Both the position numbers and the translations under genes were made by a program. Below are positions 1 through 14,320 of a DNA stretch of 15,581 nucleotides, piece after piece. The notes under the pieces are model-generated. The model was not told the DNA's origin. It did no database searches and was given only the letters and a program-made list of their open reading frames with translations. Every line of letters starts with the position of its first letter. The first letter of the stretch is position 1. The stretch is from the IMG/VR virus record IMGVR_UViG_2778261646_000020, one strand, 5' to 3'. The DNA is from a virus. Taxonomy: Duplodnaviria > Heunggongvirae > Uroviricota > Caudoviricetes.

Positions 1-792
1 ATGCCATTAAATGGAGTCAGTGCTGCGATGCGCGAACGGGTATCGCAGCAGTTAAAAGAAATAGAACGTCGCTATGGCGTGAAAGTGCTGTACGCCTGCG
101 AATCAGGCAGCCGCGGCTGGGGATTTGCCTCGCCCGATAGCGACTACGATGTACGGTTTTTGTATGTCCATCCGCTGGAATGGTATCTGCGTGTAGAGTC
201 ACCGCGCGATGTTATCGAGCTGCCCATCGACGACGAAATAGATGTTTCCGGTTGGGAGTGGCGTAAGGCGCTGGGATTATTGAAAGGCGCGAATCCGACG
301 TTGATAGAATGGCTGGATTCTCCGGTGGTCTATCAACAAGATGAAGAAACGATAACGGCGCTTAAGGCAATGGTCCCAATGTGGTTTTCTTCGTTGCGTG
401 CACGCTGGCATTACTATTCGATGGCGCAGAAAAACTTCCGCGGCTATTTGCAGGGCGATGAAGTTCGACTGAAAAAATACTTTTACGTGCTGCGTCCGCT
501 GCTGGCCGTACGCTGGGTTGAAGCGGGAAAAGGCGTGCCGCCAATGCGCTTTGCCGAGTTACTGGCGGGAAGCGAGCTTGATGCGCCGTTACGCGTAGAA
601 ATAGACGAACTGCTGGAGCGTAAACAGCGAGCGGGGGAGGCGGAATATGGTCCGCGTCGTCCTTTGTTACATGCGTTTATTCGCGCGGAGCTGGCGCGCG
701 GGGAAATTCCACCAGTGTTACCGGATAGCAGAGAAGGGGACGTTAAGGAACTGGATAGTTTACTGTACCAGACGGTAATGCGCCGGGCGTGA
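1..792 (+). CDS. Nucleotidyltransferase-fold (pol-beta superfamily) protein, 263 aa, function unknown
   Basis: ATG at 1-3, TGA at 790-792. Motif ESGSRGWGFASPDSDYDV fits the minimal nucleotidyltransferase signature G-S-x(9-13)-D-x-D. The start coincides with the window edge, so the true N-terminus cannot be verified. Confidence 0.6.
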   Translation: MPLNGVSAAMRERVSQQLKEIERRYGVKVLYACESGSRGWGFASPDSDYDVRFLYVHPLEWYLRVESPRDVIELPIDDEIDVSGWEWRKALGLLKGANPTLIEWLDSPVVYQQDEETITALKAMVPMWFSSLRARWHYYSMAQKNFRGYLQGDEVRLKKYFYVLRPLLAVRWVEAGKGVPPMRFAELLAGSELDAPLRVEIDELLERKQRAGEAEYGPRRPLLHAFIRAELARGEIPPVLPDSREGDVKELDSLLYQTVMRRA

Positions 793-809
793 TGCCCGGC
801 GTTATTTTA
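781..809 (+). terminator. Rho-independent terminator for the plus-strand gene
   Basis: Perfect 8-bp GC-rich inverted repeat cgccgggc (781-788) / gcccggcg (794-801) with 5-nt loop containing the TGA stop, followed by ttatttta (802-809). It lies between two convergent stop codons (790-792 and 807-809). Confidence 0.5.
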
Positions 810-1262
810 CGGCTGATATTGCCAGCTACTGACTAAAGCGTACAAGTGGTTTGGAGAATAGCGCCAGCTTTCCTTCAGTTGCAGAAATTCAGCACAAAAT
901 TCACTGCAAAACAGGCGATCGCGCTGTTCTTTATTACCGATAATAATTCCTAATGCTCCGCGCCAGTCATATTTTTTGCCATCATGTTTACGGAAAAAAG
1001 TTTCCACATCCTGAAGGCTGGCCTGGAGCGGCAGCATATCCCACTTATCCGCTGGCAACGGCATTATTTTTCCGCGTACACCGCGATCGCGCAGTGATGC
1101 GGAGTAACAAAGGTAACTCTTTTCACCATGCTTAATGGCTAATTCACAGTGGGAATAATGACCACGTGTGATTTTACGGGTAAGCCAGTCAGCCAGTCGG
1201 GCAATACCACGGTGCTCTGTTCGGCCCTTATAACAAGCGAGCCAGACAGTGGTTTTACTCAT
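807..1262 (-). CDS. Hypothetical cargo protein, 151 aa; possible permuted papain-like (NlpC/P60, YiiX/YaeF-type) hydrolase
   Basis: ATG at 1262-1260 overlaps the TGA of the upstream tail fibre assembly gene (ATGA overlap), stop TAA at 809-807. Conserved-looking Cys/His motifs (WLACYKG, HYSHCEL, FCSEFCAEF). Product assignment is weak and from memory. Confidence 0.5.
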   Translation of the reverse strand: MSKTTVWLACYKGRTEHRGIARLADWLTRKITRGHYSHCELAIKHGEKSYLCYSASLRDRGVRGKIMPLPADKWDMLPLQASLQDVETFFRKHDGKKYDWRGALGIIIGNKEQRDRLFCSEFCAEFLQLKESWRYSPNHLYALVSSWQYQP

Positions 1263-1966
1263 GGTTGCCAGCCTGTTGAATAATCGTAGTCGAGCACCGC
1301 CTGAATATCGTCCAGTGCTTCCACCGCCGCGATATGGTGCTGGGCGTTTGCGAACAAGCGCATATCGTGATCCATGGTGACCGATTCAAACTGGGCGGCG
1401 ATTTCGTTGGTTAACTCGATCAGACCATTATTTTTAGTTTTCCACATTAACCCTGGCGGAATTTTTTTCTCCGCTCCCATTTTGGTGAGTGAGAGCTGCT
1501 GGATACGGCTGCTTGTATCACTGTGGAAGTAATGGTTGTTGATGATGATGTAATCGGTTGTGATGGCATCGCGTTGATTTTTGATTGCAGAGTATTTCGC
1601 CTCTTTAGCATCGGTTATAGATGGTTGCCATTTTTCACCATCCCAACGTTCAAAAGAACCTGTCGGGGAAATGACTGTTACATTTTCAGGTAATTGGCCC
1701 AATTCTTGAATAATAAGCTGGCTACCATCAACTTTGTTATAAACAGTTTGGCCTCGATGATCTTCAATAAGTCTCCATGTTTCATTCTCCCACACTGGAG
1801 TAAAACCAGGAGCCTTTTCGGGAGGTGAAATTAATGTGCAATAATTTGGCAAGCCTGTATTAGGTGCAATGTATGCATCAGACTCACCGATATATTCTTG
1901 GGAGTCTTGTGAAAAATTATATACAGTTAGTATTTGAGCTTCATCAGAAAAGGTAAAAGTATTCAT
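1259..1966 (-). CDS. Tail fibre assembly chaperone (Tfa; P2 gpG / Mu U-like)
   Basis: 235 aa. ATG at 1966-1964 overlaps the tail fibre stop (ATGA). C-terminal region ([24 protein letters not shown]) resembles the conserved tail fibre assembly domain. Sits immediately downstream of the fibre gene. Confidence 0.8.
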
Positions 1967-3543
1967 GCTAGCCTCACAATATAGTTGAATGCGATATTTT
2001 TGACGGTGTTTTCGGTGCTGCCGGTATTATTAATGGTTAGGGAGTGGTTATGGGAACCAAGTGCAATTGAATGCGAATGGGTGCCGAGCGCAACAGTGTG
2101 CGAATGGGAACCAATTGTAACACTATGAACGTGTGATGGAACATTAATTGCCAAAGATGATCCGGTACCAGGGCCATATGATGTCCAGTCGCCTTGGCCC
2201 TCTGGTGAAGATGTCCCTGTTCTTACTGTTGCAGTTGCCGAGCCTGAGCCAGATGAACTTGTTGTTTTATTTCCATGGTTAAATGATGATGCAGTTTTAG
2301 TCCCCAAGTCTGTGAGGGGTGTGGTTTTCGTCCCTAAATCAGTACTCGAAATACTGCCCGTATGGTTATGTGATTTAACTCCATCCAGTTCAGTAGATAA
2401 TATAGCGCGCCCACTGGATGGTTTTCCTTTAATTATCCATCCGCGCATATCAGGAATAACACCAGATGGATATGCAATTGCCAGTTTGGGATAGGAGGTT
2501 TTATTAAATGTCTGACCTGTCATCAGAGCGTAGCCTGAAGGTACAGAATCAGATGGCCAGGGAATAGGCATCCCAACAGGACAGCTTTCCGCAGCAATAG
2601 CCTTATCCATCGCTGCCTTAACCGCGTTCGGCGTCGCAGCTTCCGTCGTACTGGTGCTGTTGGTCGCATTATTAAGTTTCACGACCCCTTTTTGTGTCAG
2701 CGTACCGTCGGGGATACCTGTTATTTGCCCCCAGGCATGGGTATGGCTGGACGGCGCCGCAGCAATAGCCTTGTCCATCGCTGCTTTAACCGCACTTGGC
2801 GTTGCAGCTTCCGTTGTACTGGTGCTATTTGTTGTGTTGTTAAGTTTAACGACTCCTTTCTGCGTCAGTGTACCGTCAGGGATACCAGTAATCTGATTCC
2901 AGGCATGAGTATGACTGGTTGCGGCTTTGCTATTTGCCAGGTCATATGCCGTTTTTACCGCTTTTGGCGTGGCTGCTTTAGTCTCATCATCGCTATTAGT
3001 TGCATTACTGAGCTGCGTAAAACCTTTTTGTGTCAGCGTCGCATCAGGATGATTTCGTGATTGCTGATGTGTTTTCAACGCGTCATCGACATATTCCCTG
3101 GTTGCCACAACGACTGAAGGGTCGATCAAAAGCGTCACCGCGTCTGCATTGGTGACTTCCATGACCGCGCGTATAACGATTTGCTTACTGGCCCCCGCAG
3201 GTAATCGTGGCTTATAGGTTTCCGGGAATTTACCAATAGCGACCAGCGTGCCGTCGGTATCCAGTAACCCAACTTCGCGTACATACCAGCCTCCGACTTG
3301 TTCGGGAATAATCGCTTCTGCGATAACCCAGGCCGGATTATCTGGCGCAATTTTTAATGTATTGAGCTGACCACGCCAGACCTCATGGACTACTTTGGTC
3401 TGACTTTCTGTCGGTTCGATATATTTACCATTACCGTCGCCAACTACCATAGTTTGCAGACGGATCTGTTTTTGCTCGGCCAGTGCTGAGGCAATTTTGG
3501 CTTTGCCTGCAGCAGTTAATATTGTAAAAAATTCACTTGCCAT
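1963..3543 (-). CDS. Tail fibre protein, mosaic (P2 gpH-like N-terminus, fibre repeats, collar domain, His-rich tip)
   Basis: Start taken at ATG 3543-3541 ([16 protein letters not shown]...), with GGAG 5 nt upstream; the longer ORF to 3666 has no start codon at that position. N-terminus resembles the baseplate-attachment domain of P2 H-type fibres. Internal ~55-aa tandem repeats ([25 protein letters not shown]...). Collar-like motif [20 protein letters not shown]...YPKL...[12 protein letters not shown]-terminal HxH repeats ([32 protein letters not shown]). Confidence 0.85.
2584..3042 (-). repeat. Tandem ~165-bp direct repeats (about 2.7 copies, diverging) inside the tail fibre gene
   Basis: Seen directly at DNA level: 2586-2750 and 2751-2915 align over most of their length, with a more divergent partial third copy to about 3042. 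Encodes the repeated fibre motif ATPxAVKxAxDxA...HTHAW. It also generates the spurious plus-strand ORFs 2654..2896 and 2692..3060. Confidence 0.8.
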
Positions 3544-3545
3544 TA

Positions 3546-4262
3546 TTACTCCGGATATACAGACATAATTTCGGTGCTCCAGTATCCTGTGCCGACCTTC
3601 ATCGGTTGGGATTGTGTAAGGCGATCGGGTTGATAAGGTAGTAGTTGGATATATTCCTCCACACAATAACCCGTCGCTAAAAATATTCCTGATGACTGGC
3701 TGAGGCTTTCTGCAACAGGAGGCAATACTGTAATGACTTCCCCTCCTTGCATGGCGCTGCCAATAACTGGTATTGGGCTTCGATTAATAAGCCAAATAAC
3801 AATGCTTTCCAGCTTTGAACGAACATTTTTATATTCATGAATTAATGTGATAAGTGCATTGAATTCATCTTCATTTAATCCTTTTTCCTCTAGTGTAATA
3901 TTTACCTTAAAAAAATAAGCCTTCCCCCCATATTCAAACCATTCTGAAATAGTTCCGGGTAAGGAAAGTATTTCCAGCACCCGCCGTACCGCCCAAATCG
4001 TTCCTTTATATTTATGCAGCTCAATGGCTTGCTTAATTAACTCGCGCTTCTCCCGCTCATCGGTGGTAAATAACCAACCTTCCAGCCCCTGAACGTGAAA
4101 TTGTTCTGCAAGGGCTGGTAATGCCGAAGCATCAACCAGGTCGACCAGATAAACCATCAACGCCGTCAGATCGAGTTGGGCAAAACGCTCGGCGGCGATG
4201 TTTGCCAGAATCGAAAAACGCTCATCGCTGGCAAGCGGCGGCGGTGGCAGCAATTTATCCAT
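3546..4262 (-). CDS. Baseplate protein, P2 gpI-like (tail protein I family)
   Basis: Start taken at ATG 4262-4260 ([16 protein letters not shown]...), which overlaps the gpJ-like stop by 8 nt; the track ORF begins at a TTG at 4277. Stop TAA 3548-3546, 2 nt before the fibre start. N-terminal LLPP motif and position between J-like and fibre genes match gpI. Confidence 0.75.
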
Positions 4263-5370
4263 CGCTGACTCCGGCAATCGTGACGTCTATTGCAGTGCAT
4301 TCCGCCCATTCATGCGCCTGCAAAATACGTTTTGTAGGCATATTCAGCGCAACGTCATAGACGCCATCGACCTGTAACACTTTGATTATCTGGTTTGGCA
4401 CAATGTCCTGCCCCAGATGTTTCTGCCGCTGTTGCGTCCAGAGGCTAATCGCTTTACGCGCCGCAGCCAGCGTTGTCTCCTGATCGGCGGTGGTAAACAG
4501 CGTTAGCTGAGCACGGATCTCATACGGCACTCGAAGAGCGCATTTCGCACTCACTTTGTCGGTTAGCGGTCGTTTTTTCTCCTTGCTAACCTCCTGTTCG
4601 ATTTGCGCGAGCAGTTCTATTCCTGGCAGTCCGTTCAGGGTTAGCGGGTAGATCTCCACGCAGCCTTCTGGCAATCCCTCGTCCGGCCCCAGTACTGCAA
4701 CGTCAATAATCGACTGGCTAACAGAAAGCGTATGAAAGCGGTATGCGCCATAGCTGCCCGCATTACTAAAGCTTTCTGGTGCCAGTTGGATACGCTGGCG
4801 CAATGCGTCATCGCTCTCTTCACCGCAGCCGCCCGTTGACGCAGTCAGGTTGGTTACGTTGATGTCATAATGACCAATCCTGTCGACCAGTGCGCTAATT
4901 TGTGCAGGCTGCCAGCCGTTGCCCTGTTCACCTGCTGCGAGGCTGGTGGCAGGAACGGCGATATGCAAACTCCTGGCCGGAAGCAGAACATCTTCATCGG
5001 TGGCGAACATCACGCTATCAGAGGCACTGGCCCGCGTCCCCTGGGGAATCAGGATATTGCTGGTATACGCACTGACGACCGAAAACTGCAACGTCGTTTT
5101 TGCCGGTTGTGCAGGCAAACGGTGAACGCCCACCAGCTCCCCTAAATAATCCAGCATTGGCGCGCGGGAATACGCGACCAGGTTCTGTTTCGCCGCTTCC
5201 TGAATGGCGATGCGTACAAGGTTTTCACGATAGGCAAACAGGTCGATGAGCAACCGCTCAGCCTGTGCCGGATAGAGTTTTTTACCGCTGGCATCTTCAT
5301 ATTGCGCAATCATCTCACTGGTAATTTGCGCAGGATCGCGGTCAATAAAATTGGGTTCGGCTATCGCCAT
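4255..5370 (-). CDS. Baseplate assembly protein, P2 gpJ-like (T4 gp6-like wedge)
   Basis: 371 aa. ATG 5370-5368 with strong GGAGG Shine-Dalgarno upstream. Size and position between W-like and I-like genes are typical of the Baseplate_J family. Confidence 0.8.
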   Translation of the reverse strand: MAIAEPNFIDRDPAQITSEMIAQYEDASGKKLYPAQAERLLIDLFAYRENLVRIAIQEAAKQNLVAYSRAPMLDYLGELVGVHRLPAQPAKTTLQFSVVSAYTSNILIPQGTRASASDSVMFATDEDVLLPARSLHIAVPATSLAAGEQGNGWQPAQISALVDRIGHYDINVTNLTASTGGCGEESDDALRQRIQLAPESFSNAGSYGAYRFHTLSVSQSIIDVAVLGPDEGLPEGCVEIYPLTLNGLPGIELLAQIEQEVSKEKKRPLTDKVSAKCALRVPYEIRAQLTLFTTADQETTLAAARKAISLWTQQRQKHLGQDIVPNQIIKVLQVDGVYDVALNMPTKRILQAHEWAECTAIDVTIAGVSDG

Positions 5371-5720
5371 AACACCTCCGTTGAGTTGATAACGCCGTCA
5401 GCGGCGCGCCATTGCACACGTAACGTCAGATGTTCACCGTCGATTACTGGTGTCACCTTCAGCAACCGACAGCGCGGTTCCCACTGGCGGATGGCTTCCA
5501 CCGACTCCCGTACCACATGCGGGATTGCCCGCTCGATGGGGTAATCGATGTAGTGCCACAAGTTGCTGCCAAACAGCGGTCTGTGAGGATCACTGCCGCG
5601 CGGTGTGCGCAGAATGATGTGTATCGCCTGGTGAATATCATCCAGCCCGCAGACGTATTCTTCAGGCCGCTGCAAGGCCGGTTGCCAGTGCAGCGTTGAG
5701 GGGCGTGTTTTTGTGTTCAT
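5361..5720 (-). CDS. Baseplate wedge protein, P2 gpW / T4 gp25-like
   Basis: 119 aa. ATG 5720-5718; 3' end overlaps the gpJ-like start by 10 nt. Size and position are typical of gpW/gp25 family proteins. Confidence 0.75.
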   Translation of the reverse strand: MNTKTRPSTLHWQPALQRPEEYVCGLDDIHQAIHIILRTPRGSDPHRPLFGSNLWHYIDYPIERAIPHVVRESVEAIRQWEPRCRLLKVTPVIDGEHLTLRVQWRAADGVINSTEVLWR

Positions 5721-5780
5721 GAGGGTATTTTCGCCCTGAACGGGCTGTGGAGATATTAAAGCGATTTAGAAAACTGATTG

Positions 5781-5813
5781 ATTAAAAAGAGAAAACCCGC
5801 CATCAGGCGGGTT
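5781..5813 (-). terminator. Intrinsic terminator-like hairpin between the V-like and W-like genes
   Basis: 8-bp stem aacccgcc (5794-5801) / ggcgggtt (5806-5813), 4-nt loop, starting 5 nt after the gpV-like stop. On the transcribed minus strand it is followed by TTCTCTTTTTAAT. Confidence 0.4.
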
Positions 5814-5818
5814 AAAAG

Positions 5819-6520
5819 TCAGTGTGAATGGTGGTTGGAGTTGCCACCGCTGTCCTGCAATGCGCCGCTGGCCTGAACGTTGCCGATCACGTTGACATTG
5901 CCGGTTATCGTGGCTGCGTTACCGATGCCTCCACTTCCTGCCATCCCGCCAAGCCAGGTGAGTTTTTTCATTACCGTGACGTTGCCAGTAAAGGTGCTCA
6001 TGGGCGCATCTACCGTCACTGCTGCTGCTTTAACCTCGACCTTAGTGGCGTCGATGCTGACATCGGTCGCTTTAACATCGACGGTATCGGAAGTCACGGT
6101 GACCTGTTGGGCTTTAATCTCAACGTTGGGCGATGTCAGGCAGGTACCGTTGATAACCTCAATCACGATTTTCTCGATACCGCCGTTGATCGTCAGCTGG
6201 TGCGTGCTGCGGTCATATTCAAACGCTGCGCCATCAGAAAACTGGACGTAACGTTTGTCGCGCGAGGCTACAGGCGCGGTGTCAACCGTAGAATAAACTG
6301 CGCCCAGCACCACGCCATCTTCACCGTTATTGTCCAGCAGAACTTCCACTTGCTCGCCCATATCCGGTAGCCAGTAGTCTTTATTGTCCTGGGAATTGCG
6401 TTGAAGTACCGCAAGCCAGTTGCTCTTCAGATTGTCACACTCCGGGAGCGTGACCCGCACCCGAACGCTGGTTTCGTCAATATCGCTGATAATCCCCGTT
6501 TGACGGGTTACTCCTTTCAT
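5819..6520 (-). CDS. Baseplate spike, P2 gpV-like (T4 gp5-like), with C-terminal beta-helix-like region and His-rich tip
   Basis: 233 aa. ATG 6520-6518 with GGAGGA 9 nt downstream of the gpD-like stop. C-terminal half is rich in V/T/G repeats (VTVTSDTVDVKATDVSIDATKVEVKAAAVTVDA) and ends ...SGGNSNHHSH. Confidence 0.75.
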   Translation of the reverse strand: MKGVTRQTGIISDIDETSVRVRVTLPECDNLKSNWLAVLQRNSQDNKDYWLPDMGEQVEVLLDNNGEDGVVLGAVYSTVDTAPVASRDKRYVQFSDGAAFEYDRSTHQLTINGGIEKIVIEVINGTCLTSPNVEIKAQQVTVTSDTVDVKATDVSIDATKVEVKAAAVTVDAPMSTFTGNVTVMKKLTWLGGMAGSGGIGNAATITGNVNVIGNVQASGALQDSGGNSNHHSH

Positions 6521-6529
6521 ATTTCCTCC

Positions 6530-7570
6530 TTACTGGCTGGTCGCTGGCCCGCGCGACACGTCGATTTCAGTGGTATAGCCGCTGCGCACAAAACTGTGAG
6601 TCGATTTATCAATTAGCCATTGACCGGAAAGCACGCCAAAATCGGTTAGCTCGATTTTATTGCCCGCCGTCAGTTCCGGGCAGCCCATCATTGTGAGCGT
6701 TCCGGTTTGCTGATATTCGTTGTGGCTGTCGAGTGCAGCGTTGGCTTTTGCCTGTGCTGCGCCAACGTCCGTCGCCCGACTGTTCAGTTTTAGCGTGTCG
6801 GCACTGGTGCCGACTCCACGGGCAGACGGTTTTTGCTGGCTGTCGTGGGTGTAGATAACCAGTTCTTTTTTCTTACTATTTTGATGCTGTACGGTGGCGT
6901 TTTTGTAGATACGGTTAATGGTATCTTTGAAGGTGAAATGCGAAACGTCTTTGCGGTCGATCTTTTTCACAGGTGCCAGGCAGCGCAGCGTGGGTAAATG
7001 TGAAAAAATCAGCTCTTTCGTCGTCACTTTTACGGCATAACCATATTCACTGGCCAGACGTTTGAGAAATCCAACATCGGTTTCGCCGTACTGTGTCACC
7101 CGGTCAATTGTCAGAGGCTCGATTTTGCCCACCAGCTTTAGGCCGTGAGTTTGTGCGATACGGCTGGCGATAGCCGAAAGCGTCGTTTCTTCAAAGCCCT
7201 GGCTGTTACGGGTGCGCAGCGCCTGATTGACGGAAGTGGCGATGCCATCAATATTTACCGTAGAAGGTGGCGCTGAAATATCAATTTTATCAATAATATA
7301 CTGACCACAATCGAGCAGCTTTTCTCCCTGATAACCCATATGCAGCGCCAGCGTATCGCCTTTGCCGGGATACCACTCTTTTATCCAGCGTCCATCTGTG
7401 TCATCCAGTGTAATTGCGATGGTATCCGACTCGTTTTTGATGCTGTCGTGGTAACTGATGCTGGTGACATAGGGTGTGATGTCATAAGTGATATCTTTAT
7501 GCCCATACCAGAGGGTAAAAATGGGCGTGAGTGTGGCAAAGACGCCACCAGTTACGCTTATCTCAGCCAT
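6530..7570 (-). CDS. Baseplate hub protein, P2 gpD / Mu P-like (late control D family; T4 gp27 / VgrG N-terminus-like)
   Basis: 346 aa. ATG 7570-7568 with GGAG upstream. Size and position between X-like and V-like genes fit the phage gpD family. Confidence 0.75.
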   Translation of the reverse strand: MAEISVTGGVFATLTPIFTLWYGHKDITYDITPYVTSISYHDSIKNESDTIAITLDDTDGRWIKEWYPGKGDTLALHMGYQGEKLLDCGQYIIDKIDISAPPSTVNIDGIATSVNQALRTRNSQGFEETTLSAIASRIAQTHGLKLVGKIEPLTIDRVTQYGETDVGFLKRLASEYGYAVKVTTKELIFSHLPTLRCLAPVKKIDRKDVSHFTFKDTINRIYKNATVQHQNSKKKELVIYTHDSQQKPSARGVGTSADTLKLNSRATDVGAAQAKANAALDSHNEYQQTGTLTMMGCPELTAGNKIELTDFGVLSGQWLIDKSTHSFVRSGYTTEIDVSRGPATSQ

Positions 7571-7770
7571 GGTGGGATCTCCGATAAGGTTTTATTAACG
7601 GAAATGACCGGAATAATGAGCTGAATACCGGAAGGCAGTACCGGGTAAATGGCTACATGTGGATTGGCGGCGATTATGCGTTCATAAGCCAGCGCATCAC
7701 CGTAGTAATGCCATGCCAGATTATCCCAGCGTTCGCCGTCGGTGGTGATATGTTCAAGGTATCGCATCAC
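7558..7770 (-). CDS. Tail protein X-like (small LysM-like tail/baseplate protein)
   Basis: 70 aa (69 aa if started at the ATG at 7767-7765 rather than the GTG at 7770-7768). Overlaps the upstream U-like stop and the downstream D-like start. Size and position match gpX. Confidence 0.65.
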   Translation of the reverse strand: MMRYLEHITTDGERWDNLAWHYYGDALAYERIIAANPHVAIYPVLPSGIQLIIPVISVNKTLSEIPPWLR

Positions 7771-8720
7771 CAGATCCTCGTAATGGTCGCGGCAGCAAGC
7801 TGGCTCACTGTGGGAGTGGTTTGTTGTACCGTTGTTCGTGCCTGATCAACCAACGTTGCGGCTTTATCAAACGTCGCTTCGGCGATGTCGCTGGTAATGT
7901 CGTCGAAAAGCGCCTGAGCATGGTCAACCAGTGTACTGGCGTCATTGGCGCAGTCCCGGATACCTGGCATGTTACCCAGTAAAGTTTTAATCTGCGCCGA
8001 CAACGCTTTTGGGAGTCCTGCCAGCGTTTGCAGATCCATTGGCTGTTTAAACAGGGTTTCGATGGCGTCGATTGTCTTTTTCAATGACGTAATTATCTTT
8101 TCACACTTTTCTTTTAACGCTTTGGCCTCTTTAATCATTGCTTTCACTTTTGCCACCGTTTTTTTAATATCTTCAATGGCTTGTGTCAGTTCATCCAGCA
8201 TCTCTTTGGCCTTACGCATACCTTCTTCGATGGCGTTTAATATCTGATCAAACCAGGACTCCACCTTGTCGGGAAAATCGCTCGCCTTTTCCTCGATGTT
8301 GGGCTCCTGGGTGGTAATCGCCGGAGGTAAAAGTGGATTTTTAGGATCGCCGGTGTACTCCTGGAGCGACATCGTTCCGTTTTGGGCAATCACATTGCCC
8401 CAGGGATCGGTGTGCTGGTGGGTGGCGGTTAGCTCCGTAATCACAAACCAGCCGCGATAATCGCCATTGCCAAATACCAGTGCCATCGCCTTGTGAGCAA
8501 GCATGGCTTCACGCAGTCGGTTCAGCTCTGTTGTGGGCTGGCAAAACTGGCTGTGCAGGGAAAATTCCAGCGCCAGCATATCCAGCTTATCGCCAATAAA
8601 CTGCACGCCGGGTTTGCCTTCTATACGGGCATGTGTGGCGTAATCCACGCCCATTGTGCTTTTAAAGCCGTCCCAGAATGTGACAACCTTCAATTCAATC
8701 TCTCCTAAAACGGCATACAT
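7767..8720 (-). CDS. gpU-like tail protein with ~170-aa C-terminal coiled-coil extension (occupies the position of Mu N, the DNA circularization protein)
   Basis: 317 aa. ATG 8720-8718 shares one base with the tape measure TGA. The N-terminal ~140 aa (MYAVLGEIELKVVTFWDG...GKPGVQFIGDKLDMLALEF...FGNGDYRGWFVITEL) resemble the gpU family. The C-terminal half is K/E-rich with heptad-like periodicity (EEGMRKAKEMLDELTQAIEDIKKTVAKVKAMIKEAKALKEKCEKIITSLKKTIDAIETL). Confidence 0.6.
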   Translation of the reverse strand: MYAVLGEIELKVVTFWDGFKSTMGVDYATHARIEGKPGVQFIGDKLDMLALEFSLHSQFCQPTTELNRLREAMLAHKAMALVFGNGDYRGWFVITELTATHQHTDPWGNVIAQNGTMSLQEYTGDPKNPLLPPAITTQEPNIEEKASDFPDKVESWFDQILNAIEEGMRKAKEMLDELTQAIEDIKKTVAKVKAMIKEAKALKEKCEKIITSLKKTIDAIETLFKQPMDLQTLAGLPKALSAQIKTLLGNMPGIRDCANDASTLVDHAQALFDDITSDIAEATFDKAATLVDQARTTVQQTTPTVSQLAAATITRIW

Positions 8721-11095
8721 CAGGCATACCCCCGGCGCTGTTGTTGCGCCATTACGTCGTTAATCATTCTTTCCAGTTCGCGTTTACTCATCGTCAACAC
8801 GTTCTGAATCTCTTTAGTGGTGTTTTGTCCGTTTCCCTGCACGGTAATCTGTGGCGAAAAATTTACCTGGACTTTTCCTGAGGAACGGGAGGGTAGCGTC
8901 GCCGGTTTGGTTACGGATTTACCAGGTAAAGAGGCAGATACGGGTTTGGCGGCTGTATTTTTTGCCGCTGGCGCCGATGACGGCGTAGCCGTTTTGCCGG
9001 ATGGCGCGAGTTGTTTGCCCACCGGCGGCGTTAAAATCGCACCGGCAACGCCTGGAACAACGGTCGCGGGGGAGACGGATGCGGTATTAGTCGTGCTTGT
9101 AATAGCTGTAGCCGATCCTTCTGTACTAATACCCATCGTGGTTTTTAGCCAGTCTGGGATGGCGTTTTTTACCTGATCAATAATGCCTTTCAGAGCGGGG
9201 AAGGCATTCATTATGCCGTCAACCAGACTGCCCAGAAGATTGCTGCCGAACTCGCTAAAACTTGCAGGCATCTCGACACCAAACCAATTCATCACACTGG
9301 AAAAGGCGCTATAGAACAACTCCAGCGGTGACCAGTCGAGAATCAACCGACAAATTCCTGCAATGCCGCCGTCAAAGGCCGTGGTGATACGTTGCCAGAT
9401 GGTCGAAAAGAACCTGGAGATAGGCTCCCAGTTGCGACAAATCAGATAAGCAGCGCCCGCAATCGCAGTGATGACCAGACCAATGGGATTCATCAATAAA
9501 ACCCTACCCAACCAGAAGACGGTCTGACCTACCTGTTTCAGTGCGCCAATCAGGCCATGACCAAGCAGTTGCATTAGCCATTTTGCGCTGCCACCCAATG
9601 ACTTAACCGCTGATAGCATCTTACTTGCCCCGCCTGTGAGCGCCAGACTTGCCTTGACTTTCAGGAAGATATCGACCAGACGAATAAACGGCGAGGTGAT
9701 GAGGTTCGCGCCCAGCTTTAAAACATTCAGCGCGCCGTTAAACAGCCAAACCGCCCCGACGATTTTCGCAATGTTTTGCACCAGCGCCGGATGTTCGCGT
9801 AGCCAGGCGCTGAACTGGCGAATAACCGGCGTAAGGCTTTGTGCCAGCTCGCCAATCGCCGGCATAAGCTGCAAACCAATGCTGAGCCATAAATCATTTA
9901 ATGCCAGCTGTAACGCTTTAGTCTGTTCAATGGGCGAGGCCATTTGCGCAGAAAAGTCAGCGTTAATCAGATTCTTGCTGGTGGCTTGCATGGCAGAGGC
10001 TTTTAACTGGCGATATTCCTCCATATTCGCCAGCATAGGTGCCAGGAATTCCACCGTTTGCGCATCGCCGAACATTTCGCCCAGATTAAATTGCGTTACC
10101 ATCAATTGCAGCGCATTGCTGCGAGCAGATAAATCTTCAATCTGCATAGTGCGTTTGAAGGTGTCGAGGATCGCCGGATTCATCTTCTCAAGCTGCATTT
10201 GTACGATATGAGTCATGGCTTCGCTAACACCCATACCGTTTTGCTGATGTTCAAGCAGAGAGCCTTGCAGATCGACGCCCTGGCTGGCGAACCAGCTATC
10301 GGTTTTTTTCGAAAAGGTGGTTTGCAGAAAGTGGTCGAAATTCTCCGCCGCCGCACTGGCGCTGGCCCCGTTTTTCATGGCGATCTGCATGGTGGCGCTC
10401 AGTTCAGCCATACCTTCCAGACCCTGAGCGCCGGTTTTACCTGCAAATTTCTCTATCCACTGCGTTTGTTCAGCAATGACAGGCCCACCGCTTTTGCTAA
10501 TGCCGTACATCATGTTTTGCGCGGCGTGGAAATTTTCCGGGGCAATATTCAGTCGATCATGGGTTGCGAGCGCGGCATTCGCCCATGTTTCAGCACTTTC
10601 GCGCGTGGCGGTGGCAGCTTTGGCGATCTCCGGCATATAACGGTTGAGATCCTGTATCGACGACAAATTGCCTTCGATCAGCGTTTGGGCTGCGTTCTGT
10701 AAGGTGGTCTGCTGCTGGTTAAAATCCATGCTCCAGTCGCGCAGATTAAGGCTGAGCGTCTCGCGGGTTGTAGCATTCATCCCACCTTTGGTCGCCATAT
10801 TGACCATGTTGTCCTGAAACTCATACGGCAACTTCCAGTCGGGGGCTTCAACATTGAATACTTTGCTAAATTGCCCGGCAAATGTTTGGGTTTTCTCCAT
10901 CAGATTAGCGCGGCTGCGGCTATTTTCCTCCAGGCGGAGAGCGGAATCGGCAAGCTGCTGCGTTAGTTTGATAACTGTCGCCTGCTGAGTAGAGAGAGTT
11001 AACAATGTTCTGGCGTTGAGTGAGCCGTAACGGGCTATTGCCTGCGTCAACGTCTCATTACGCGCCTGAAGCTGGGTAATAATATCGTTGGCCAA
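8720..11095 (-). CDS. Tail tape measure protein
   Basis: 791 aa, the largest ORF, located between chaperone and baseplate genes. Alpha-helical N-terminus, central hydrophobic/Gly-rich segments, Pro/Ser/Thr-rich C-terminus. The annotated start is a TTG at 11095-11093, with an in-frame TAA 4 codons upstream and no ATG or GTG in between, so the exact start is uncertain. Confidence 0.85.
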   Translation of the reverse strand: MANDIITQLQARNETLTQAIARYGSLNARTLLTLSTQQATVIKLTQQLADSALRLEENSRSRANLMEKTQTFAGQFSKVFNVEAPDWKLPYEFQDNMVNMATKGGMNATTRETLSLNLRDWSMDFNQQQTTLQNAAQTLIEGNLSSIQDLNRYMPEIAKAATATRESAETWANAALATHDRLNIAPENFHAAQNMMYGISKSGGPVIAEQTQWIEKFAGKTGAQGLEGMAELSATMQIAMKNGASASAAAENFDHFLQTTFSKKTDSWFASQGVDLQGSLLEHQQNGMGVSEAMTHIVQMQLEKMNPAILDTFKRTMQIEDLSARSNALQLMVTQFNLGEMFGDAQTVEFLAPMLANMEEYRQLKASAMQATSKNLINADFSAQMASPIEQTKALQLALNDLWLSIGLQLMPAIGELAQSLTPVIRQFSAWLREHPALVQNIAKIVGAVWLFNGALNVLKLGANLITSPFIRLVDIFLKVKASLALTGGASKMLSAVKSLGGSAKWLMQLLGHGLIGALKQVGQTVFWLGRVLLMNPIGLVITAIAGAAYLICRNWEPISRFFSTIWQRITTAFDGGIAGICRLILDWSPLELFYSAFSSVMNWFGVEMPASFSEFGSNLLGSLVDGIMNAFPALKGIIDQVKNAIPDWLKTTMGISTEGSATAITSTTNTASVSPATVVPGVAGAILTPPVGKQLAPSGKTATPSSAPAAKNTAAKPVSASLPGKSVTKPATLPSRSSGKVQVNFSPQITVQGNGQNTTKEIQNVLTMSKRELERMINDVMAQQQRRGYA

Positions 11096-11185
11096 AATTG
11101 TTTCTCTTTAAATATTGATAATGGCCCGCTGGTTATTTTTCTAAAAAAAGGGGCAGGGAAGAAATAAACCTGACGGGCTTGGGAA

Positions 11186-11210
11186 ACTCGCAGACATCAG
11201 GTCTGCGAGT
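11186..11210 (-). other. Perfect 10-bp stem-loop between chaperone region and tape measure gene
   Basis: actcgcagac (11186-11195) / gtctgcgagt (11201-11210) with 5-nt loop atcag. Contains the stop codon of the alternate-frame chaperone extension. Not followed by a clear U-tract on the transcribed strand. Confidence 0.5.
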
Positions 11211-11284
11211 CATATTCGATTTTTATTTGGGCGCTGGCTTCATCCAGCCAGTTGCTAAAGTCATCGACGGTAAGGGCGTCTATC

Positions 11285-11602
11285 TCACTGGGTGGAAAGC
11301 GAAACCATCTCGCCAGTAACGCCATCGCTTGCCATAACAGTGGCGGATTCTGTAGCCACGCTAAGCATGGATTGAAATCGTTTCTGCAATGCCTGGTAAT
11401 CCAGCAAATCCATTTCAGCTAAATCTTCTGGCACCAGTCCGGTCATTGCCGCCATTAGCGGTTCATCCCACTCTTCAGGTTTTTCGCTGATCCGGCGCGC
11501 GTTGCGCATATCTTTTACTTTCAGGCGACGTAATTGCAGAGTGTTAATTACGTCTCCCGCCGCTGAAGTAAACGGGAACTGTAAGATATAATGTTCTTTC
11601 AT
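11285..11602 (-). CDS. Tail assembly chaperone, P2 gpE-like
   Basis: 105 aa. ATG 11602-11600 with AAGGA upstream. Motif GLVPEDLAEMDLLDYQALQKRF resembles the conserved core of gpE-family tail assembly proteins. Located between tube and tape measure genes. Confidence 0.75.
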   Translation of the reverse strand: MKEHYILQFPFTSAAGDVINTLQLRRLKVKDMRNARRISEKPEEWDEPLMAAMTGLVPEDLAEMDLLDYQALQKRFQSMLSVATESATVMASDGVTGEMVSLSTQ

Positions 11603-11628
11603 TTTGTGTCCTTATTTATTTTGCAAAG

Positions 11629-11648
11629 TTCGGGGCCGTAGCCCCGAA
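11629..11648 (-). other. GC-rich hairpin between tube and chaperone genes
   Basis: 8-bp stem ttcggggc (11629-11636) / gccccgaa (11641-11648), loop cgta. No U-tract follows on the transcribed strand, so it is not called a terminator. Confidence 0.4.
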
Positions 11649-11652
11649 TAAC

Positions 11653-12177
11653 TTAGCCACCGATGTTATTGCGATAGGTACTTAATTGATCCACACCATT
11701 AACCCGGAAAATATTGGCCATATAATCAAGTTCAAGCAGCGTTTCACCATCAACTACTTGTTTAATATAAGTGCAACCAAAGGCGCTGCTGAATTCCGGG
11801 TTTTCATTCTGTTTAAATGTGCCCAGTGGATTCTTTTTAAACATCACGGTTAAATGTGTCACTAGCGCTAATTGATTCGCTTTCCCCTGGGAGTTATAGC
11901 AATCAATACTGGAGCGGCACTGTAATGCAACCGCCTGCCACGGGTTTGCCGTTTTACGCATTACGTCCTGATAGAAGGAGTTCCATTTAATTTCGCCCTC
12001 CAGTTTATCGAAACCCGCCGGGAGTTCGATTTTACCCACCATGCCCAGTGCTTTATGCTCCTGCATAATTAAACTGACATCCGGCAATTTAATTTCGGTT
12101 GCACGACCTAAAAGGTTATTACCATCGAGATAAATATTGGCGTTGGTAATACGGTTAATTTGAATTTTTCCAGCCAT
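11653..12177 (-). CDS. Tail tube protein (P2 FII / Mu M-like)
   Basis: 174 aa. ATG 12177-12175 shares one base with the sheath stop. Size and position immediately downstream of the sheath gene; N-terminus MAGKIQINRITNANIYLDGNNLLG is typical of contractile-tail tube proteins. Confidence 0.85.
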   Translation of the reverse strand: MAGKIQINRITNANIYLDGNNLLGRATEIKLPDVSLIMQEHKALGMVGKIELPAGFDKLEGEIKWNSFYQDVMRKTANPWQAVALQCRSSIDCYNSQGKANQLALVTHLTVMFKKNPLGTFKQNENPEFSSAFGCTYIKQVVDGETLLELDYMANIFRVNGVDQLSTYRNNIGG

Positions 12178-13579
12178 TAGCTATTGCTCTCCAGAGAGAC
12201 TAAATATTCAGAAGTAATTTCAGTTTCAAACGTCAGACGTTCCAGCGGCGGCGGCGGGGTGAATTTATAGCTCAGCAATAAATGCCCAGCGCTGAGTTCA
12301 GTCGGTGAATTTCGCGCCGGATCGTACCAGCATTCAAAGCCAAGCAGTGCGCCGTCGGCAATCAGCTTACGGCCCCAGGTATTTACCGATTCGGTCAGGG
12401 CATCAATCAGCGCCTGATTAATCGGCATATCAATATACTGCTGACTGAAATAACGGATTGACTCATTAATTACATCGCCTGTCCGGCGGACGTTTTCAAA
12501 GTTACGCATATGGGTCACGGTAGGCCACGCTGCAGTGCGGTTGCCCCACAAGCGCAGACCAGAGCCGTAACTATTGAAAATAGTGGTAATGCCGTTTTCG
12601 TTTAGCTGATTCACTTCGCTTTGTGGATCATCAATCATTGCGGAAAGCGAACGTTCAATACCGGTAATACCCTGAATTTCTTGGTTTGAGTTGCTCCACC
12701 AGAAACCTTTTTCGAGGTCTACTTTGGCACGTAGCCCGGCAGCGCGCGAAGAGAGCGGTTCGAGAACTTCTTGGTTAGTGATGCCATCGTAAACTTTGAC
12801 GTGTGGGTAACATAAACGCGCACGATCAGAGCTGGTGTTGAAGTTGATAGCCCCTTGCGAACCGCGTCCTGCCAATACCTGCTGGAATGTCGTCCCAATC
12901 GGGGCATCAATGTAGGTAATCGCACCAAGTTTTTCCGCTTGTGCAATCAGCTCTGTAGTTACTGATTTTTGCGTACAGAACACGGGAGCAAGCAGGATTT
13001 TGGCGTAGAAACCATACAGGTTATAGGTGTCCTGTAGCAGTTTCATCCCCGTGCGATCGCCTGCGGTATTAACGGCACCGATAATATCGGCTGCGGTGAC
13101 CTTTGTAGGGTCGCACCAGGAGGAATGTCGGCTCCTGTACGGGTAATTATGCCTGTTTGTTCATCTACGCTAAATGCTGCGGTGTTATAGGTTGATGAAT
13201 TTGATGAAGAGGGCTTTAGAACCACGTTACGCACATTGCGGTGAGTGAGTTTCGCCTGGTTGTTAGCATCAAAAGTGATACTTTCATTGCTGATGTTGGA
13301 GCCATGTTTTGCCGGATCCAGCACGTTAATCACCACCACCGTACCGGCACCGTGGTCATAAATCGCCTTCAGTGCCTGTGGGATCGTAAAGTTAGTCTGA
13401 GTCGAACCAAACTGCGCAGCATCGCTTTCAGAAAGGCATAATGTTGGTTTATTTACCGGACCACAGGGGGCCGTACCGATTAAAGCGATGACGGCGGATT
13501 TTACCGCTTTAACCGGACGCGGGCCGGTTTCAATTTCAATGGTTTCTACACCGTGCAGATAATTAGCTGCCATGTACAA
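12177..13579 (-). pseudogene. Tail sheath gene interrupted by a frameshift (two ORF fragments 13043..13579 and 12177..13046)
   Basis: N-terminal fragment (MYMAANYLHGVETIEIETGPRPVKAVKSAVIALIG...) matches the sheath N-terminus. The downstream frame, read upstream of its first Met, gives ...KVTAADIIGAVNTAGDRTGMKLLQDTYNLYGFY..., which continues the sheath. The two frames meet near 13105-13125, consistent with a 1-nt deletion (or 2-nt insertion) relative to an intact gene. Confidence 0.75.
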
Positions 13580-14212: not shown

Positions 14213-14261
14213 ATAGGCTGTACCTTAATTACCGCTCACTTCGTTATCGTTGAGATATATT

Positions 14262-14281
14262 CTGAAGCAGTGAAGGTGAAG
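14262..14281 (-). promoter_or_regulatory. Three closely spaced TGAAG repeats (CTTCA on the transcribed strand) in the lysis-tail intergenic region; candidate regulator site or late promoter region
   Basis: Plus strand TGAAGcagTGAAGgTGAAG at 14263-14281, lying between the terminator hairpin (14328-14354) and the first tail gene start (14212). No convincing sigma-70 -35/-10 pair was found. Confidence 0.3.
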
Positions 14282-14320
14282 AATCTTTTAATGTGATTTA
14301 GAGAAAAAATTGAATGGCTA

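What the first reader, a model, noticed from the sequence alone, without database searches (positions are those of the whole stretch)
807..1262. Cargo gene translationally coupled to the tail fibre chaperone: possible Cys/His hydrolase at the fibre-distal end of the element
The 151-aa ORF starts with an ATGA overlap on the tail fibre assembly gene, so it is co-expressed with late tail genes, yet it resembles no core tail protein. Its Cys/His motifs (HCEL, FCSEFC) are reminiscent of permuted papain-like (NlpC/P60, YiiX-type) hydrolases. The position just beyond the tail fibre genes is a recognised site for accessory and anti-phage cargo in P2-like prophages. It could be a fibre-associated enzyme, a superinfection-exclusion factor, or a defence or toxin gene.
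Basis: inference. Interest (0 to 1): 0.55.

Follow-up and report, generated by a model that had tools for sequence, protein, structure and literature searches.

The report
Cysteine hydrolase coupled to tail-fibre chaperone
The last gene of a phage-tail gene cluster in E. coli encodes a small enzyme of the circularly permuted papain-like (YiiX-type) class, wrongly labelled "enoyl-CoA hydratase" in databases; in hundreds of phages it is translated together with the tail-fibre chaperone, and what it acts on is unknown.

Summary
Window 807..1262 (minus strand) is a real 151-aa gene. Its ATG overlaps the TGA of the upstream tail-fibre assembly (TFA) gene as ATGA.

The cargo/defence reading is not supported:
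- There are no PADLOC hits.
- The gene co-occurs almost one-to-one with the tail cluster in E. coli (203 vs 197 of 5426 genomes).
- It stays 96% identical where the fibre tip and the TFA N-domain are swapped.
- Its dN/dS is 0.06-0.10.
- In 75 of 80 viral loci it starts within -11..+3 nt of the stop of an upstream ORF, a recognisable TFA gene in 74 of the 80.

Many related TFAs, such as lambda Tfa, lack it, so it is an optional add-on.

The element is a Mu-type, tail-only cluster, the E. coli counterpart of Salmonella "Def4" (the gene matches STM4198).

The best reading is a Cys-His-Tyr acyl/amide hydrolase or transferase that works with the fibre module. The substrate is unknown. Interest is moderate.

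The parts
807..1262 (-). 151-aa gene (17.8 kDa, pI 9.4) with no hydrophobic segment or signal peptide. It encodes a stand-alone permuted papain-like (YaeF/YiiX-like NlpC/P60) protein and is the orthologue of Salmonella STM4198.
1149..1151 (-). Codon of His38, the candidate catalytic base. It sits in the motif Y-S-H-x-E, and Glu40 is encoded at 1143-1145.
   Evidence: It aligns with the catalytic His49 of 3kw0. It lies at the start of strand 38-44. It is present in 149 of 149 representatives, and Glu40 in 147 of 149.
906..908 (-). Codon of Cys119, the candidate nucleophile, in the motif F-C-S-E.
   Evidence: It aligns with the catalytic Cys154 of 3kw0. It is the first residue of helix 119-126. 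It is present in 149 of 149 representatives.
969..971 (-). Codon of Tyr98, the candidate oxyanion-hole tyrosine.
   Evidence: It is present in 149 of 149 representatives. It lies 21 residues before the Cys, compared with 27 residues in BcPPNE (Tyr127) and 13 in YiiX (Tyr115). The equivalence is inferred and was not superposed.
1259..1262 (-). ATGA start/stop overlap between the TFA gene and the 151-aa gene, implying translational coupling.
   Evidence: The same 4-nt overlap occurs in Salmonella, E. coli D7, an HP1-like prophage, Pm86 and pAN, and in 49 of 80 viral loci.
1259..1966 (-). Tail-fibre assembly protein (235 aa). It has an N-terminal Caudo_TAP-like core and a C-terminal DUF4376 domain (residues 119-227, encoded at about 1283-1612).
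   Evidence: DUF4376 proteins are experimentally studied fibre chaperones in Alteromonas phages (PMC10579305).
1963..3543 (-). Tail-fibre gene (526 aa by the RefSeq start). Its C-terminal tip (about 1963-2600) is exchanged between strains, together with the N-terminal half of the TFA gene.
780..802 (.). GC-rich hairpin between the convergent nucleotidyltransferase gene (plus strand) and the 151-aa gene (minus strand). Only the plus-strand side is followed by a T-tract.
811..812 (.). Boundary of the tail element. About 1436 E. coli genomes that lack the tail cluster share window 1-811 only, so the 151-aa gene is the terminal gene of the inserted element.

Best explanation
**What it is.** The gene encodes a small cytoplasmically made enzyme of the circularly permuted papain-like NlpC/P60 group. 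It represents a separate family closest to YaeF/YiiX.

**Expression (inferred).** It is translated by coupling to the tail-fibre assembly (chaperone) gene, as the last cistron of a Mu-type late tail operon. It should therefore appear at the same time, and in roughly the same amount, as the fibre chaperone.

**Chemistry (inferred from the superfamily).**
- Cys119, at the N-terminus of a helix, is deprotonated by His38 on the neighbouring beta-strand.
- Cys119 attacks an acyl carbonyl and forms a thioester intermediate.
- Tyr98 stabilises the oxyanion.
- Glu40 probably orients His38, in place of the usual third residue.
- The intermediate is resolved by water (hydrolase) or by an acceptor (acyltransferase).

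**Substrate (by analogy).** Characterised permuted members act on fatty-acyl ester or amide bonds, or on isopeptide-type bonds. A peptidoglycan peptide is therefore the less likely substrate.

**Working model.** The enzyme is an optional third component of the fibre module (fibre, chaperone, enzyme). It would act in one of two ways:
- on the fibre/chaperone complex, by processing it or releasing the chaperone "cap"; or
- carried on the particle, or released with it, to act on a lipid-linked envelope component.

**Shown here:**
- the fold;
- the invariant residues;
- the conserved coupling to TFA genes;
- purifying selection;
- fixation in the element.

**Inferred:**
- catalysis;
- the substrate class;
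- any link to fibre function.
For: **Fold and active site.**
- The family profile hits 3kw0 at E 7.8e-5, aligning S-H with S-H and C-S-E with C-S-E.
- The AlphaFold model has pLDDT 82.8 and pTM 0.81.
- BFVD hits include proteins named "Permuted papain-like amidase YaeF/YiiX C92".
- His38, Cys119 and Tyr98 are 100% conserved and Glu40 is 99% conserved.
- The catalytic residues of 3kw0 and YiiX, and the fatty acid bound in YiiX, are described in PMC3142127.
- Characterised permuted members are lipid- or acyl-directed: LnsA and Tox-Act1/TseH.

**Coupling to the fibre chaperone.**
- The ATGA overlap is in the window.
- In 75 of 80 viral loci the gene starts within -11..+3 nt of an upstream ORF's stop.
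- In 74 of 80 loci the upstream gene is a TFA of the DUF4376 type or the PHROG 8258 type.
- The same arrangement occurs in SuMu, Mcat7, AP1, pAN, Pm86, P2-like and lambda-like clusters.

**Retention.**
- The gene is in 203 E. coli genomes and the tail cluster in 197.
- It is 96% identical in strain D7, where the fibre is 45% and the TFA 50% identical.
- The exchanged block stops inside the TFA gene. The DUF4376 half and this gene stay together.
- dN/dS is 0.06-0.10 in a tail-only element shared with Salmonella.
Against: - No activity, substrate or partner was tested.
- The model coordinates could not be inspected, so the Cys-His-Tyr geometry and the S1 pocket are not verified.
- The canonical third catalytic residue (Glu64 of 3kw0) aligns with Ala55 here, and with Ser in most relatives.
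- Pfam PF05708 is not matched. The best hit among 46 members has E 0.073.
- Foldseek against the PDB found nothing.
- Related TFAs in lambda, in P2-like phages and in 243 phage records mostly lack this gene. Alteromonas DUF4376 chaperones act without it. It is therefore not required for fibre folding in general.
- Adjacency to TFA genes could simply reflect a preferred insertion site at the end of late operons.
- Two contexts are not fibre-linked: a Tokpelaia chromosome and the Ralstonia jumbo phage RP12.
- In this window's strain the sheath gene is broken, so the element may be inactive here.
Confidence: 0.5

Rival explanations
1. **Host-directed accessory gene (moron).** The enzyme is carried at the end of the late operon for a purpose unrelated to fibres. 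Examples are superinfection exclusion, defence or counter-defence, a toxin, or remodelling of the producer's envelope lipids or lipoproteins so that released particles are not lost on debris.
For: - The gene is optional among phages with homologous TFAs.
- It is the terminal gene, abutting the element boundary.
- In a P2-like cluster a homologue lies between the fibre genes and the sheath gene. From my own knowledge this corresponds to the P2 Z/fun cargo site.
- PHROGs files the family under "moron, auxiliary metabolic gene and host takeover".
- Permuted NlpC/P60 toxins that attack phospholipids exist: Tox-Act1 and TseH.
- A Tokpelaia chromosome carries an orphan copy.
Against: - There is no PADLOC hit.
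- No sigma-70-like promoter was predicted near it, and the start overlaps the TFA stop in most loci. This differs from the usual moron layout, as I know it from the literature.
- No adjacent immunity-like gene is present.
- The gene is not variable within the element family, whereas the fibre tip next to it is.
- It is kept under purifying selection in a tail-only element that does not replicate or inject DNA. That argues against a role in phage genome-level conflicts, though not against a benefit to the host.
- It has no signal peptide, so it cannot reach the periplasm unaided.
Confidence: 0.25
2. **Peptidoglycan endopeptidase.** It would act either as a second endolysin, released through the holin lesion, or as a particle-borne wall-degrading enzyme that helps tail penetration.
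For: - It belongs to the NlpC/P60 superfamily, whose canonical families are cell-wall peptidases.
- Classical endolysins also lack signal peptides (established knowledge).
- In several siphovirus-like loci the gene lies next to the holin and endolysin genes.
Against: - The closest structures are YiiX and BcPPNE, which have been proposed to be lipid-amino-acid amidases.
- Permuted members tested so far act on acyl-lipid bonds. This includes TseH, once thought to be a wall peptidase.
- The conserved partner is the TFA gene, not the lysis genes. In this element the lysis cassette lies about 13 kb away, at the other end of the tail cluster.
- Adjacency to lysis genes follows from the order fibres-then-lysis in those phages.
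Confidence: 0.1
3. **Non-catalytic protein.** It would be a second fibre chaperone or a small structural or adaptor protein that merely keeps a papain-like scaffold.
For: - The coupling to TFA genes is tight and near-stoichiometric.
- The canonical third catalytic residue is missing.
Against: - His38, Cys119 and Tyr98 are invariant and Glu40 is 99% conserved across 149 representatives at 50% identity or less. These are the positions of the catalytic residues in 3kw0.
- Inactive scaffolds normally lose such residues.
- There is no similarity to any known tail structural protein or chaperone.
Confidence: 0.07

Closest known systems
[quoted passage not shown]
   Same: - The S-H and C-S-E motifs align.
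- A tyrosine is conserved upstream of the Cys.
- It is a cytoplasmic stand-alone protein, as BcPPNE is.
   Different: - Identity is only 18%, and no member reaches the Pfam threshold.
- It is shorter: 151 aa, against 195 aa for native BcPPNE and 180-189 aligned chain residues in the two structures.
- The third catalytic residue (Glu64 of 3kw0) is replaced by Ser or Ala.
- A Glu two residues after the His is nearly invariant instead.
- The family is phage-borne and tied to tail-fibre assembly genes. To my knowledge this context has not been described for YiiX-like proteins.
Lipid- or acyl-directed permuted NlpC/P60 enzymes: LRAT/PLAAT, T6SS effectors Tox-Act1 and TseH, S. aureus LnsA, MARTX RID, CLN5, DeSI/PPPDE
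   Different: - The relationship is much more distant than to YiiX.
- Those proteins carry secretion signals, membrane anchors or toxin-delivery domains, and some have immunity partners. None of these is present here.
Accessory genes next to receptor-binding genes, such as P2 Z/fun, T5 llp and the cor genes (from my own knowledge, not tested here)
   Same: The position is just downstream of the fibre and chaperone genes. The gene is optional among related phages.
   Different: - There is no sequence or fold relationship.
- Those are membrane proteins or lipoproteins, or have their own expression signals.
- This gene is translationally coupled to the chaperone gene and is predicted to be a soluble enzyme.
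Enoyl-CoA hydratase / carnitine racemase (crotonase), the label in GenBank records and PHROG 1128
   Same: Nothing except the inherited database name.
   Different: There is no Pfam hit to crotonase families at E up to 1. The protein is only 151 aa. Every significant structural neighbour is papain-like.

Membership tests
Permuted papain-like NlpC/P60 (YaeF/YiiX-like, PPNE) | Papain-like alpha+beta fold with circular permutation, the His-bearing beta-strands preceding the Cys-bearing helix | tested here: met
   [not shown]
Permuted papain-like NlpC/P60 (YaeF/YiiX-like, PPNE) | Invariant nucleophilic Cys at the N-terminus of a helix | tested here: met
   Cys119 is the first residue of helix 119-126. 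It aligns with Cys154 of 3kw0. It is present in 149 of 149 representatives.
Permuted papain-like NlpC/P60 (YaeF/YiiX-like, PPNE) | Invariant catalytic His on a beta-strand, N-terminal to the Cys | tested here: met
   His38 is at the start of strand 38-44. It aligns with His49 of 3kw0 and with the S-H of YiiX. It is present in 149 of 149 representatives.
Permuted papain-like NlpC/P60 (YaeF/YiiX-like, PPNE) | Third polar catalytic residue on the next strand (Glu64 in 3kw0) | tested here: not met
   The aligned position is Ala55 here, and Ser in 84% or Ala in 16% of relatives. Glu40 (99% conserved) may substitute, but the geometry could not be checked. PPPDE1 and LRAT also depart from the canonical third residue.
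Permuted papain-like NlpC/P60 (YaeF/YiiX-like, PPNE) | Conserved oxyanion-hole tyrosine (Tyr127 in 3kw0, Tyr115 in YiiX) | tested here: inconclusive
   Tyr98 is invariant in 149 of 149 representatives and lies 21 residues before Cys119. No residue-level structural superposition was available.
Permuted papain-like NlpC/P60 (YaeF/YiiX-like, PPNE) | Match to the Pfam PF05708 (Peptidase_C92) model above its threshold | tested here: not met
   There is no hit for the window protein at E up to 1. One of 46 family members hits weakly, at E 0.073.
Permuted papain-like NlpC/P60 (YaeF/YiiX-like, PPNE) | Hydrophobic S1 pocket, lipid binding, and hydrolase or acyltransferase activity | not testable with these tools
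Testing needs a structure with ligand and enzymology.
Enoyl-CoA hydratase / crotonase (database label) | Crotonase fold and a match to ECH family models | tested here: not met
   [not shown]
Canonical NlpC/P60 cell-wall peptidase or endolysin | Cys before His in the sequence, with a lysis-cassette or secretion context | tested here: not met
   His38 precedes Cys119. There is no signal peptide. The lysis genes lie at the far end of the tail cluster. The phage NlpC/P60 endolysin Phi1gp518 is the canonical type, Cys54 then His105.
Anti-phage defence or variable cargo at a prophage hotspot | Match to known defence families | tested here: not met
   PADLOC gives 0 families at E up to 1.
Anti-phage defence or variable cargo at a prophage hotspot | Presence or absence varies among otherwise similar elements | tested here: not met
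   The gene is in 203 E. coli genomes (196 of them full length). The baseplate region is in 197 genomes (195 full length). In strain D7 the gene is kept while the fibre tip is exchanged. Among more distant phages with related TFAs it is optional.
Tail-fibre module (fibre + assembly chaperone) accessory component | Same-strand, immediately adjacent to and co-translated with a TFA gene across diverse phages | tested here: met
   In 75 of 80 loci the gap is -11..+3 nt. In 74 of 80 loci the upstream gene is of TFA class. Seven further, more distant contexts show the same arrangement.
Tail-fibre module (fibre + assembly chaperone) accessory component | Physical association with the fibre, chaperone or particle, or a requirement for fibre function | not testable with these tools
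   No multimer prediction was possible. The SuMu virion proteomics does not mention the homologue gp51.

The most novel reading that the evidence does not exclude
Tail-fibre modules of many temperate phages and tail-only elements have an unrecognised third component. It is a chaperone-coupled Cys-His acyl-hydrolase or acyltransferase that does one of two things:
- it covalently processes the fibre/chaperone complex, by de-capping or by adding or removing an acyl group; or
- it rides on the fibre tip to attack a lipid-linked envelope molecule of the target cell, such as lipid A, a lipoprotein or a phospholipid.

The second case would be the first lipid-directed enzyme known to be delivered by a phage tail fibre or tailocin.
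Probability: 0.15. Interest if true: 0.75.

Novelty: new variant of a known kind. Interest (0 to 1): 0.47.

Why it matters
- **Annotation.** A large protein family has no Pfam model and carries a wrong metabolic label ("enoyl-CoA hydratase"). It comprises 4440 clusters at 50% identity and appears in more than 500 viral contigs. Placing it in the permuted papain-like group corrects the annotation and names testable catalytic residues: Cys119, His38, Tyr98 and Glu40.
- **Biology.** Its near-obligate translational coupling to tail-fibre chaperone genes suggests an enzymatic step in fibre or particle biology that current models of fibre assembly and host recognition do not include.
- **Applications.** This matters for engineering phage and tailocin host range, where fibre-plus-chaperone cassettes are usually swapped without this gene.
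- **The element.** The gene also marks an uncharacterised Mu-type tail-only cluster shared by Salmonella (Def4) and about 4% of complete E. coli genomes.

Tried and rejected
**Searches that found nothing**
- The afdb50 library was unavailable.
- The window protein has no match in Pfam, NCBIfam or PADLOC.
- Literature searches found no functional study of STM4198, of the neighbouring STM42xx genes, or of this E. coli cluster.
- The SuMu virion proteomics paper does not mention the homologue gp51.

**Leads that proved irrelevant**
- The "enoyl-CoA hydratase" label is rejected.
- Among the longer family members inspected, no consistent fused domain was seen. By eye, P0109 looks like a sheath N-terminus fused by deletion, and P0217 has a low-complexity N-terminal extension.
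- The Neisseria prophage NlpC/P60 endolysin Phi1gp518 is of the canonical, non-permuted type.
- The published "ST131 tailocin" is a different, P2-like prophage.
- A paper that pairs "enoyl-CoA hydratase" with inversions is unrelated.

**Technical limits**
- Iterating a home-made DUF4376 HMM did not recruit the other upstream ORFs. Representatives of those ORFs match a second TFA family, PHROG 8258.
- Model coordinates are not exposed to scripts, so active-site distances could not be measured.
- A lipobox reading of L8-A9-C10 was rejected. Only nine residues precede the Cys, and the family consensus has Phe at that position.
Full report
**Observation**

The ORF at window 807..1262 lies on the minus strand and encodes 151 aa. 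The plus-strand bases 1259-1262 read TCAT, which is ATGA on the coding strand. The ATG of this ORF therefore overlaps the TGA of the 235-aa gene at 1259..1966. That upstream gene matches Pfam DUF4376 (3.8e-14) and Caudo_TAP (3.3e-7). It also matches PHROG tail-fibre and tail-fibre-assembly families. The motifs HCEL (residues 38-41) and FCSEFC (118-123) are present. The protein is 17.8 kDa, basic (pI 9.4) and hydrophilic. Its most hydrophobic 19-residue window scores only 0.14 on the Kyte-Doolittle scale, so it has no signal peptide or membrane segment.

**Where the window comes from**

- The first 4.3 kb are 100% identical to the chromosomes of E. coli CE10 and IAI39.
- In IAI39 the gene is annotated as hypothetical protein WP_000047947.1. 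It is the last gene of a cluster that runs, on the minus strand, in this order:
  - holin, lytic transglycosylase and a membrane protein;
  - Gp37-family protein, sheath, tube, assembly chaperone and tape measure;
  - a "phage tail protein" (labelled phage P2 GpU in the Salmonella record), X and D;
  - baseplate V, W, J and I;
  - fibre, TFA and this gene.
- The gene order is that of the phage Mu tail (my own knowledge of Mu).
- The annotated region contains no head, replication or integration genes.
- Beyond the holin lie an ISEc53 transposase, a ClbS-like gene, a Mor-family activator and lysC.
- Genomes without the cluster share only window 1-811. In the example inspected, a zeta-toxin gene sits between the nucleotidyltransferase gene and lysC.
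- The element boundary therefore falls at the last codon of the 151-aa gene, which is the terminal gene of the insertion.
- A GC-rich hairpin at 780-802 separates it from the convergent nucleotidyltransferase gene.
- Salmonella carries the orthologous cluster at the same locus, STM4198-STM4219. STM4198 is 77% identical to this protein and shows the same 4-nt overlap with STM4199.
- Older papers call that region "Def4" or "STM4198-4218 putative phage". I found no functional work on it.

**What the protein is**

- Sequence libraries are silent. Pfam, NCBIfam and PADLOC give no hit.
- PHROG 1128, "enoyl-CoA hydratase/carnithine racemase-like", matches at 2.4e-58. The same label appears on homologues in SuMu, Pm86, RP12 and many Pasteurellaceae genomes.
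- A profile built from 46 homologues hits the solved B. cereus "cysteine peptidase" 3kw0 at E 7.8e-5, and YiiX (2if6) weakly. It aligns Y-S-H with F-S-H and F-C-S-E with I-C-S-E.
- Xu et al. 2011 (PMC3142127) identify those residues in 3kw0 as the catalytic His49 and Cys154, with Glu64 and Tyr127. They also show a fatty acid bound next to Cys128 of YiiX.
- An AlphaFold2 model built on the alignment has mean pLDDT 82.8 and pTM 0.81. His38 opens a beta-strand and Cys119 opens a helix.
- Foldseek against the PDB found nothing.
- Foldseek against predicted viral structures found uncharacterised Caudovirales proteins. It also found entries named "Permuted papain-like amidase YaeF/YiiX C92" and "Cysteine peptidase".
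- No crotonase-like feature exists, so the hydratase label is wrong.

**Conservation**

- A full HMMER scan of 1.84 billion representatives found 4440 clusters at E up to 1e-3, and 1941 at E up to 1e-10. Nearly all of the best 150 are stand-alone proteins of 135-180 aa.
- In an alignment of 149 of these representatives:
  - His38, Cys119, Tyr98 and Trp74 are invariant;
  - Glu40 and Gly61 are 99% conserved;
  - Ser37, Arg63 and Pro137 are 97% conserved.
- The position that aligns with the third catalytic residue of 3kw0 (Glu64) is Ser or Ala. The triad is therefore atypical, and Glu40 is the obvious substitute.
- Among the longer family members inspected, no consistent fused domain was seen. 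By eye, P0109 looks like a sheath N-terminus fused to the homologue by deletion.

**Genomic association**

- Among the 80 best loci from IMG/VR (25 clusters at 70% identity):
  - 79 have a same-strand ORF just upstream;
  - 49 show exactly the 4-nt overlap;
  - 75 have a gap between -11 and +3 nt.
- The upstream protein is a DUF4376-type chaperone in 40 loci. In 34 loci it belongs to one cluster whose representatives match PHROG 8258, "tail fiber assembly protein".
- The two upstream classes share the Caudo_TAP-like core (hhalign probability 98%).
- The same trio of fibre or tip protein, small TFA-like gene and homologue recurs in:
  - the Mu-like phage SuMu;
  - Moraxella Mcat phages;
  - Pasteurella Pm86;
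  - Pseudomonas pAN;
  - Acidovorax AP1;
  - an HP1-like E. coli prophage, where more tail genes follow;
  - a P2-like cluster, where it lies between the fibre genes and the sheath gene;
  - a lambda-J-like siphovirus module;
  - two metagenomic phages, where lysis genes follow.
- The exceptions are an orphan copy in a Tokpelaia chromosome and a copy in Ralstonia jumbo phages.
- The association runs one way. The N-domain of this TFA is homologous to lambda Tfa and to P2-type TFAs in 243 phage records, yet only 25 phage records carry the enzyme.
- Alteromonas DUF4376 chaperones work without such a gene.

**Is it variable cargo?**

- In complete E. coli genomes the gene occurs in 203 of 5426, with 196 full-length copies. 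The baseplate region occurs in 197, with 195 full-length copies. Every listed full-length copy lies beside a DUF4376 gene.
- In strain D7 the baseplate J protein is 100% identical. The fibre is only 45% identical and the TFA only 50%. This protein is 96% identical.
- A sliding comparison of the window with D7 gives these nucleotide identities:

| Window positions | Identity | Content |
|---|---|---|
| 1 to about 1600 | 83-99% | nucleotidyltransferase gene, this gene, DUF4376 half of the TFA gene |
| about 1600-2600 | unalignable | TFA N-domain plus fibre tip |
| about 2600-3900 | 58-84% (one gap-rich window lower) | rest of the fibre gene and the gpI gene |
| beyond about 3900 | 93-100% | end of the gpI gene and the baseplate J gene |

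- The specificity cassette is therefore exchanged, while this gene and the DUF4376 domain stay put.
- dN/dS is 0.10 for the window against D7 and 0.06 for D7 against Salmonella. This equals the value for baseplate J, 0.07.
- These results do not fit a hotspot cargo gene. They do fit a gene that matters to the element.

**Mechanism**

- The following are shown:
  - the fold;
  - the invariant Cys, His and Tyr;
  - the conserved coupling to TFA genes;
  - purifying selection.
- The following chemistry is inferred from the superfamily. His38 activates Cys119, which forms a thioester with an acyl group. Tyr98 stabilises the oxyanion. Water or an acceptor then resolves the intermediate.
- Characterised permuted members act on fatty-acyl or isopeptide-type bonds:
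  - YiiX and BcPPNE have been proposed to be lipid-amino-acid amidases.
  - LnsA takes part in lipoprotein N-acylation.
  - Tox-Act1 and TseH are phospholipases.
  - From my own knowledge, PLAAT/LRAT, RID, CLN5 and DeSI also belong here.
- I therefore favour an acyl or amide bond substrate over peptidoglycan.
- The protein has no export signal and is made together with the chaperone. It would then act in one of three ways:
  - in the cytoplasm on the fibre/chaperone complex, where DUF4376 chaperones have been proposed to form transient caps on fibre tips;
  - carried out on the particle;
  - released at lysis.
- I put this fibre-module accessory enzyme model at about 0.5. The rivals are:

| Rival | Confidence |
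|---|---|
| Host-directed accessory gene | 0.25 |
| Peptidoglycan endopeptidase | 0.10 |
| Non-catalytic scaffold | 0.07 |

**Verdict**

The cargo/defence framing is not supported for this element. The finding is a new, unmodelled and mis-annotated family within a known superfamily, with a conserved context that I did not find described. Interest is moderate. It is a well-defined and cheaply testable lead, not a surprise in kind.

Noticed in passing
window ~13110/13111, within the sheath gene 12177..~13579 (minus strand); IAI39 locus L001 33111-33138: The tail-sheath gene carries a 28-bp deletion relative to E. coli IAI39, between 11-bp direct repeats TCGCACCAGGA. It splits the 474-aa sheath ORF into 289-aa and 178-aa ORFs. 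The contractile tail is therefore probably non-functional in this strain, although the fibre, TFA and 151-aa genes are intact.
   Followed up: yes
window 807..15581 and beyond; L001 20807-38386: The whole element is a Mu-type, tail-only cluster with its own holin, transglycosylase and Mor-family activator. It has no head, replication or integration genes, which makes it tailocin-like. It lies between the nucleotidyltransferase gene and lysC in about 197 of 5426 complete E. coli genomes. It is orthologous to Salmonella STM4198-STM4219 ("Def4"). I found no functional study.
   Followed up: partly
window ~1600-2600 (TFA N-terminal half plus fibre C-terminal tip): Between strains the fibre tip and the N-terminal (Caudo_TAP-like) half of the chaperone are exchanged as one block. 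The DUF4376 half of the chaperone stays conserved. This suggests that the N-domain is the part matched to the fibre tip.
   Followed up: partly
window 1..792 (plus strand) and upstream; L011: An RlaP-family nucleotidyltransferase gene (PF10127, 5.8e-96) lies next to the element and is present in 1632 of 5426 genomes. A slipin-family gene lies just upstream of it in the three genomes inspected (IAI39, AR_0128, D7). In the one tail-less genome inspected (AR_0128) a zeta-toxin family gene occupies the site. The interval from the nucleotidyltransferase gene to lysC therefore looks like a variable hotspot.
   Followed up: partly
L012 12748-15583 (Salmonella Infantis contig): The Salmonella version of the cluster has a gtrABC-like O-antigen glucosylation operon inserted between the baseplate V and W genes.
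   Followed up: no
L001 35948-37705 (E. coli IAI39): An ISEc53 transposase gene and a ClbS/DfsB-family gene sit between the holin gene and the Mor activator gene. They separate the activator from the operon it presumably controls.
   Followed up: no
window 11095..11285: A gap of about 190 nt lies between the tail assembly chaperone gene (11285..11602) and the tape-measure gene (8720..11095). This is the usual place for a frameshift-extended chaperone product. It was not examined.
   Followed up: no
protein P0109 (232 aa, from the representative search): By eye, this family member looks like a chimera: a sheath-like N-terminus joined to the enzyme. That implies a large internal deletion in some degraded tail cluster.
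   Followed up: no
L005 6465-9609 (E. coli HP1-like prophage): Here the homologue is not terminal. Three more overlapping genes follow it, of 289 aa, 211 aa (HP1_ORF34 family) and 548 aa. Their function is unknown and they may be further fibre components.
   Followed up: no
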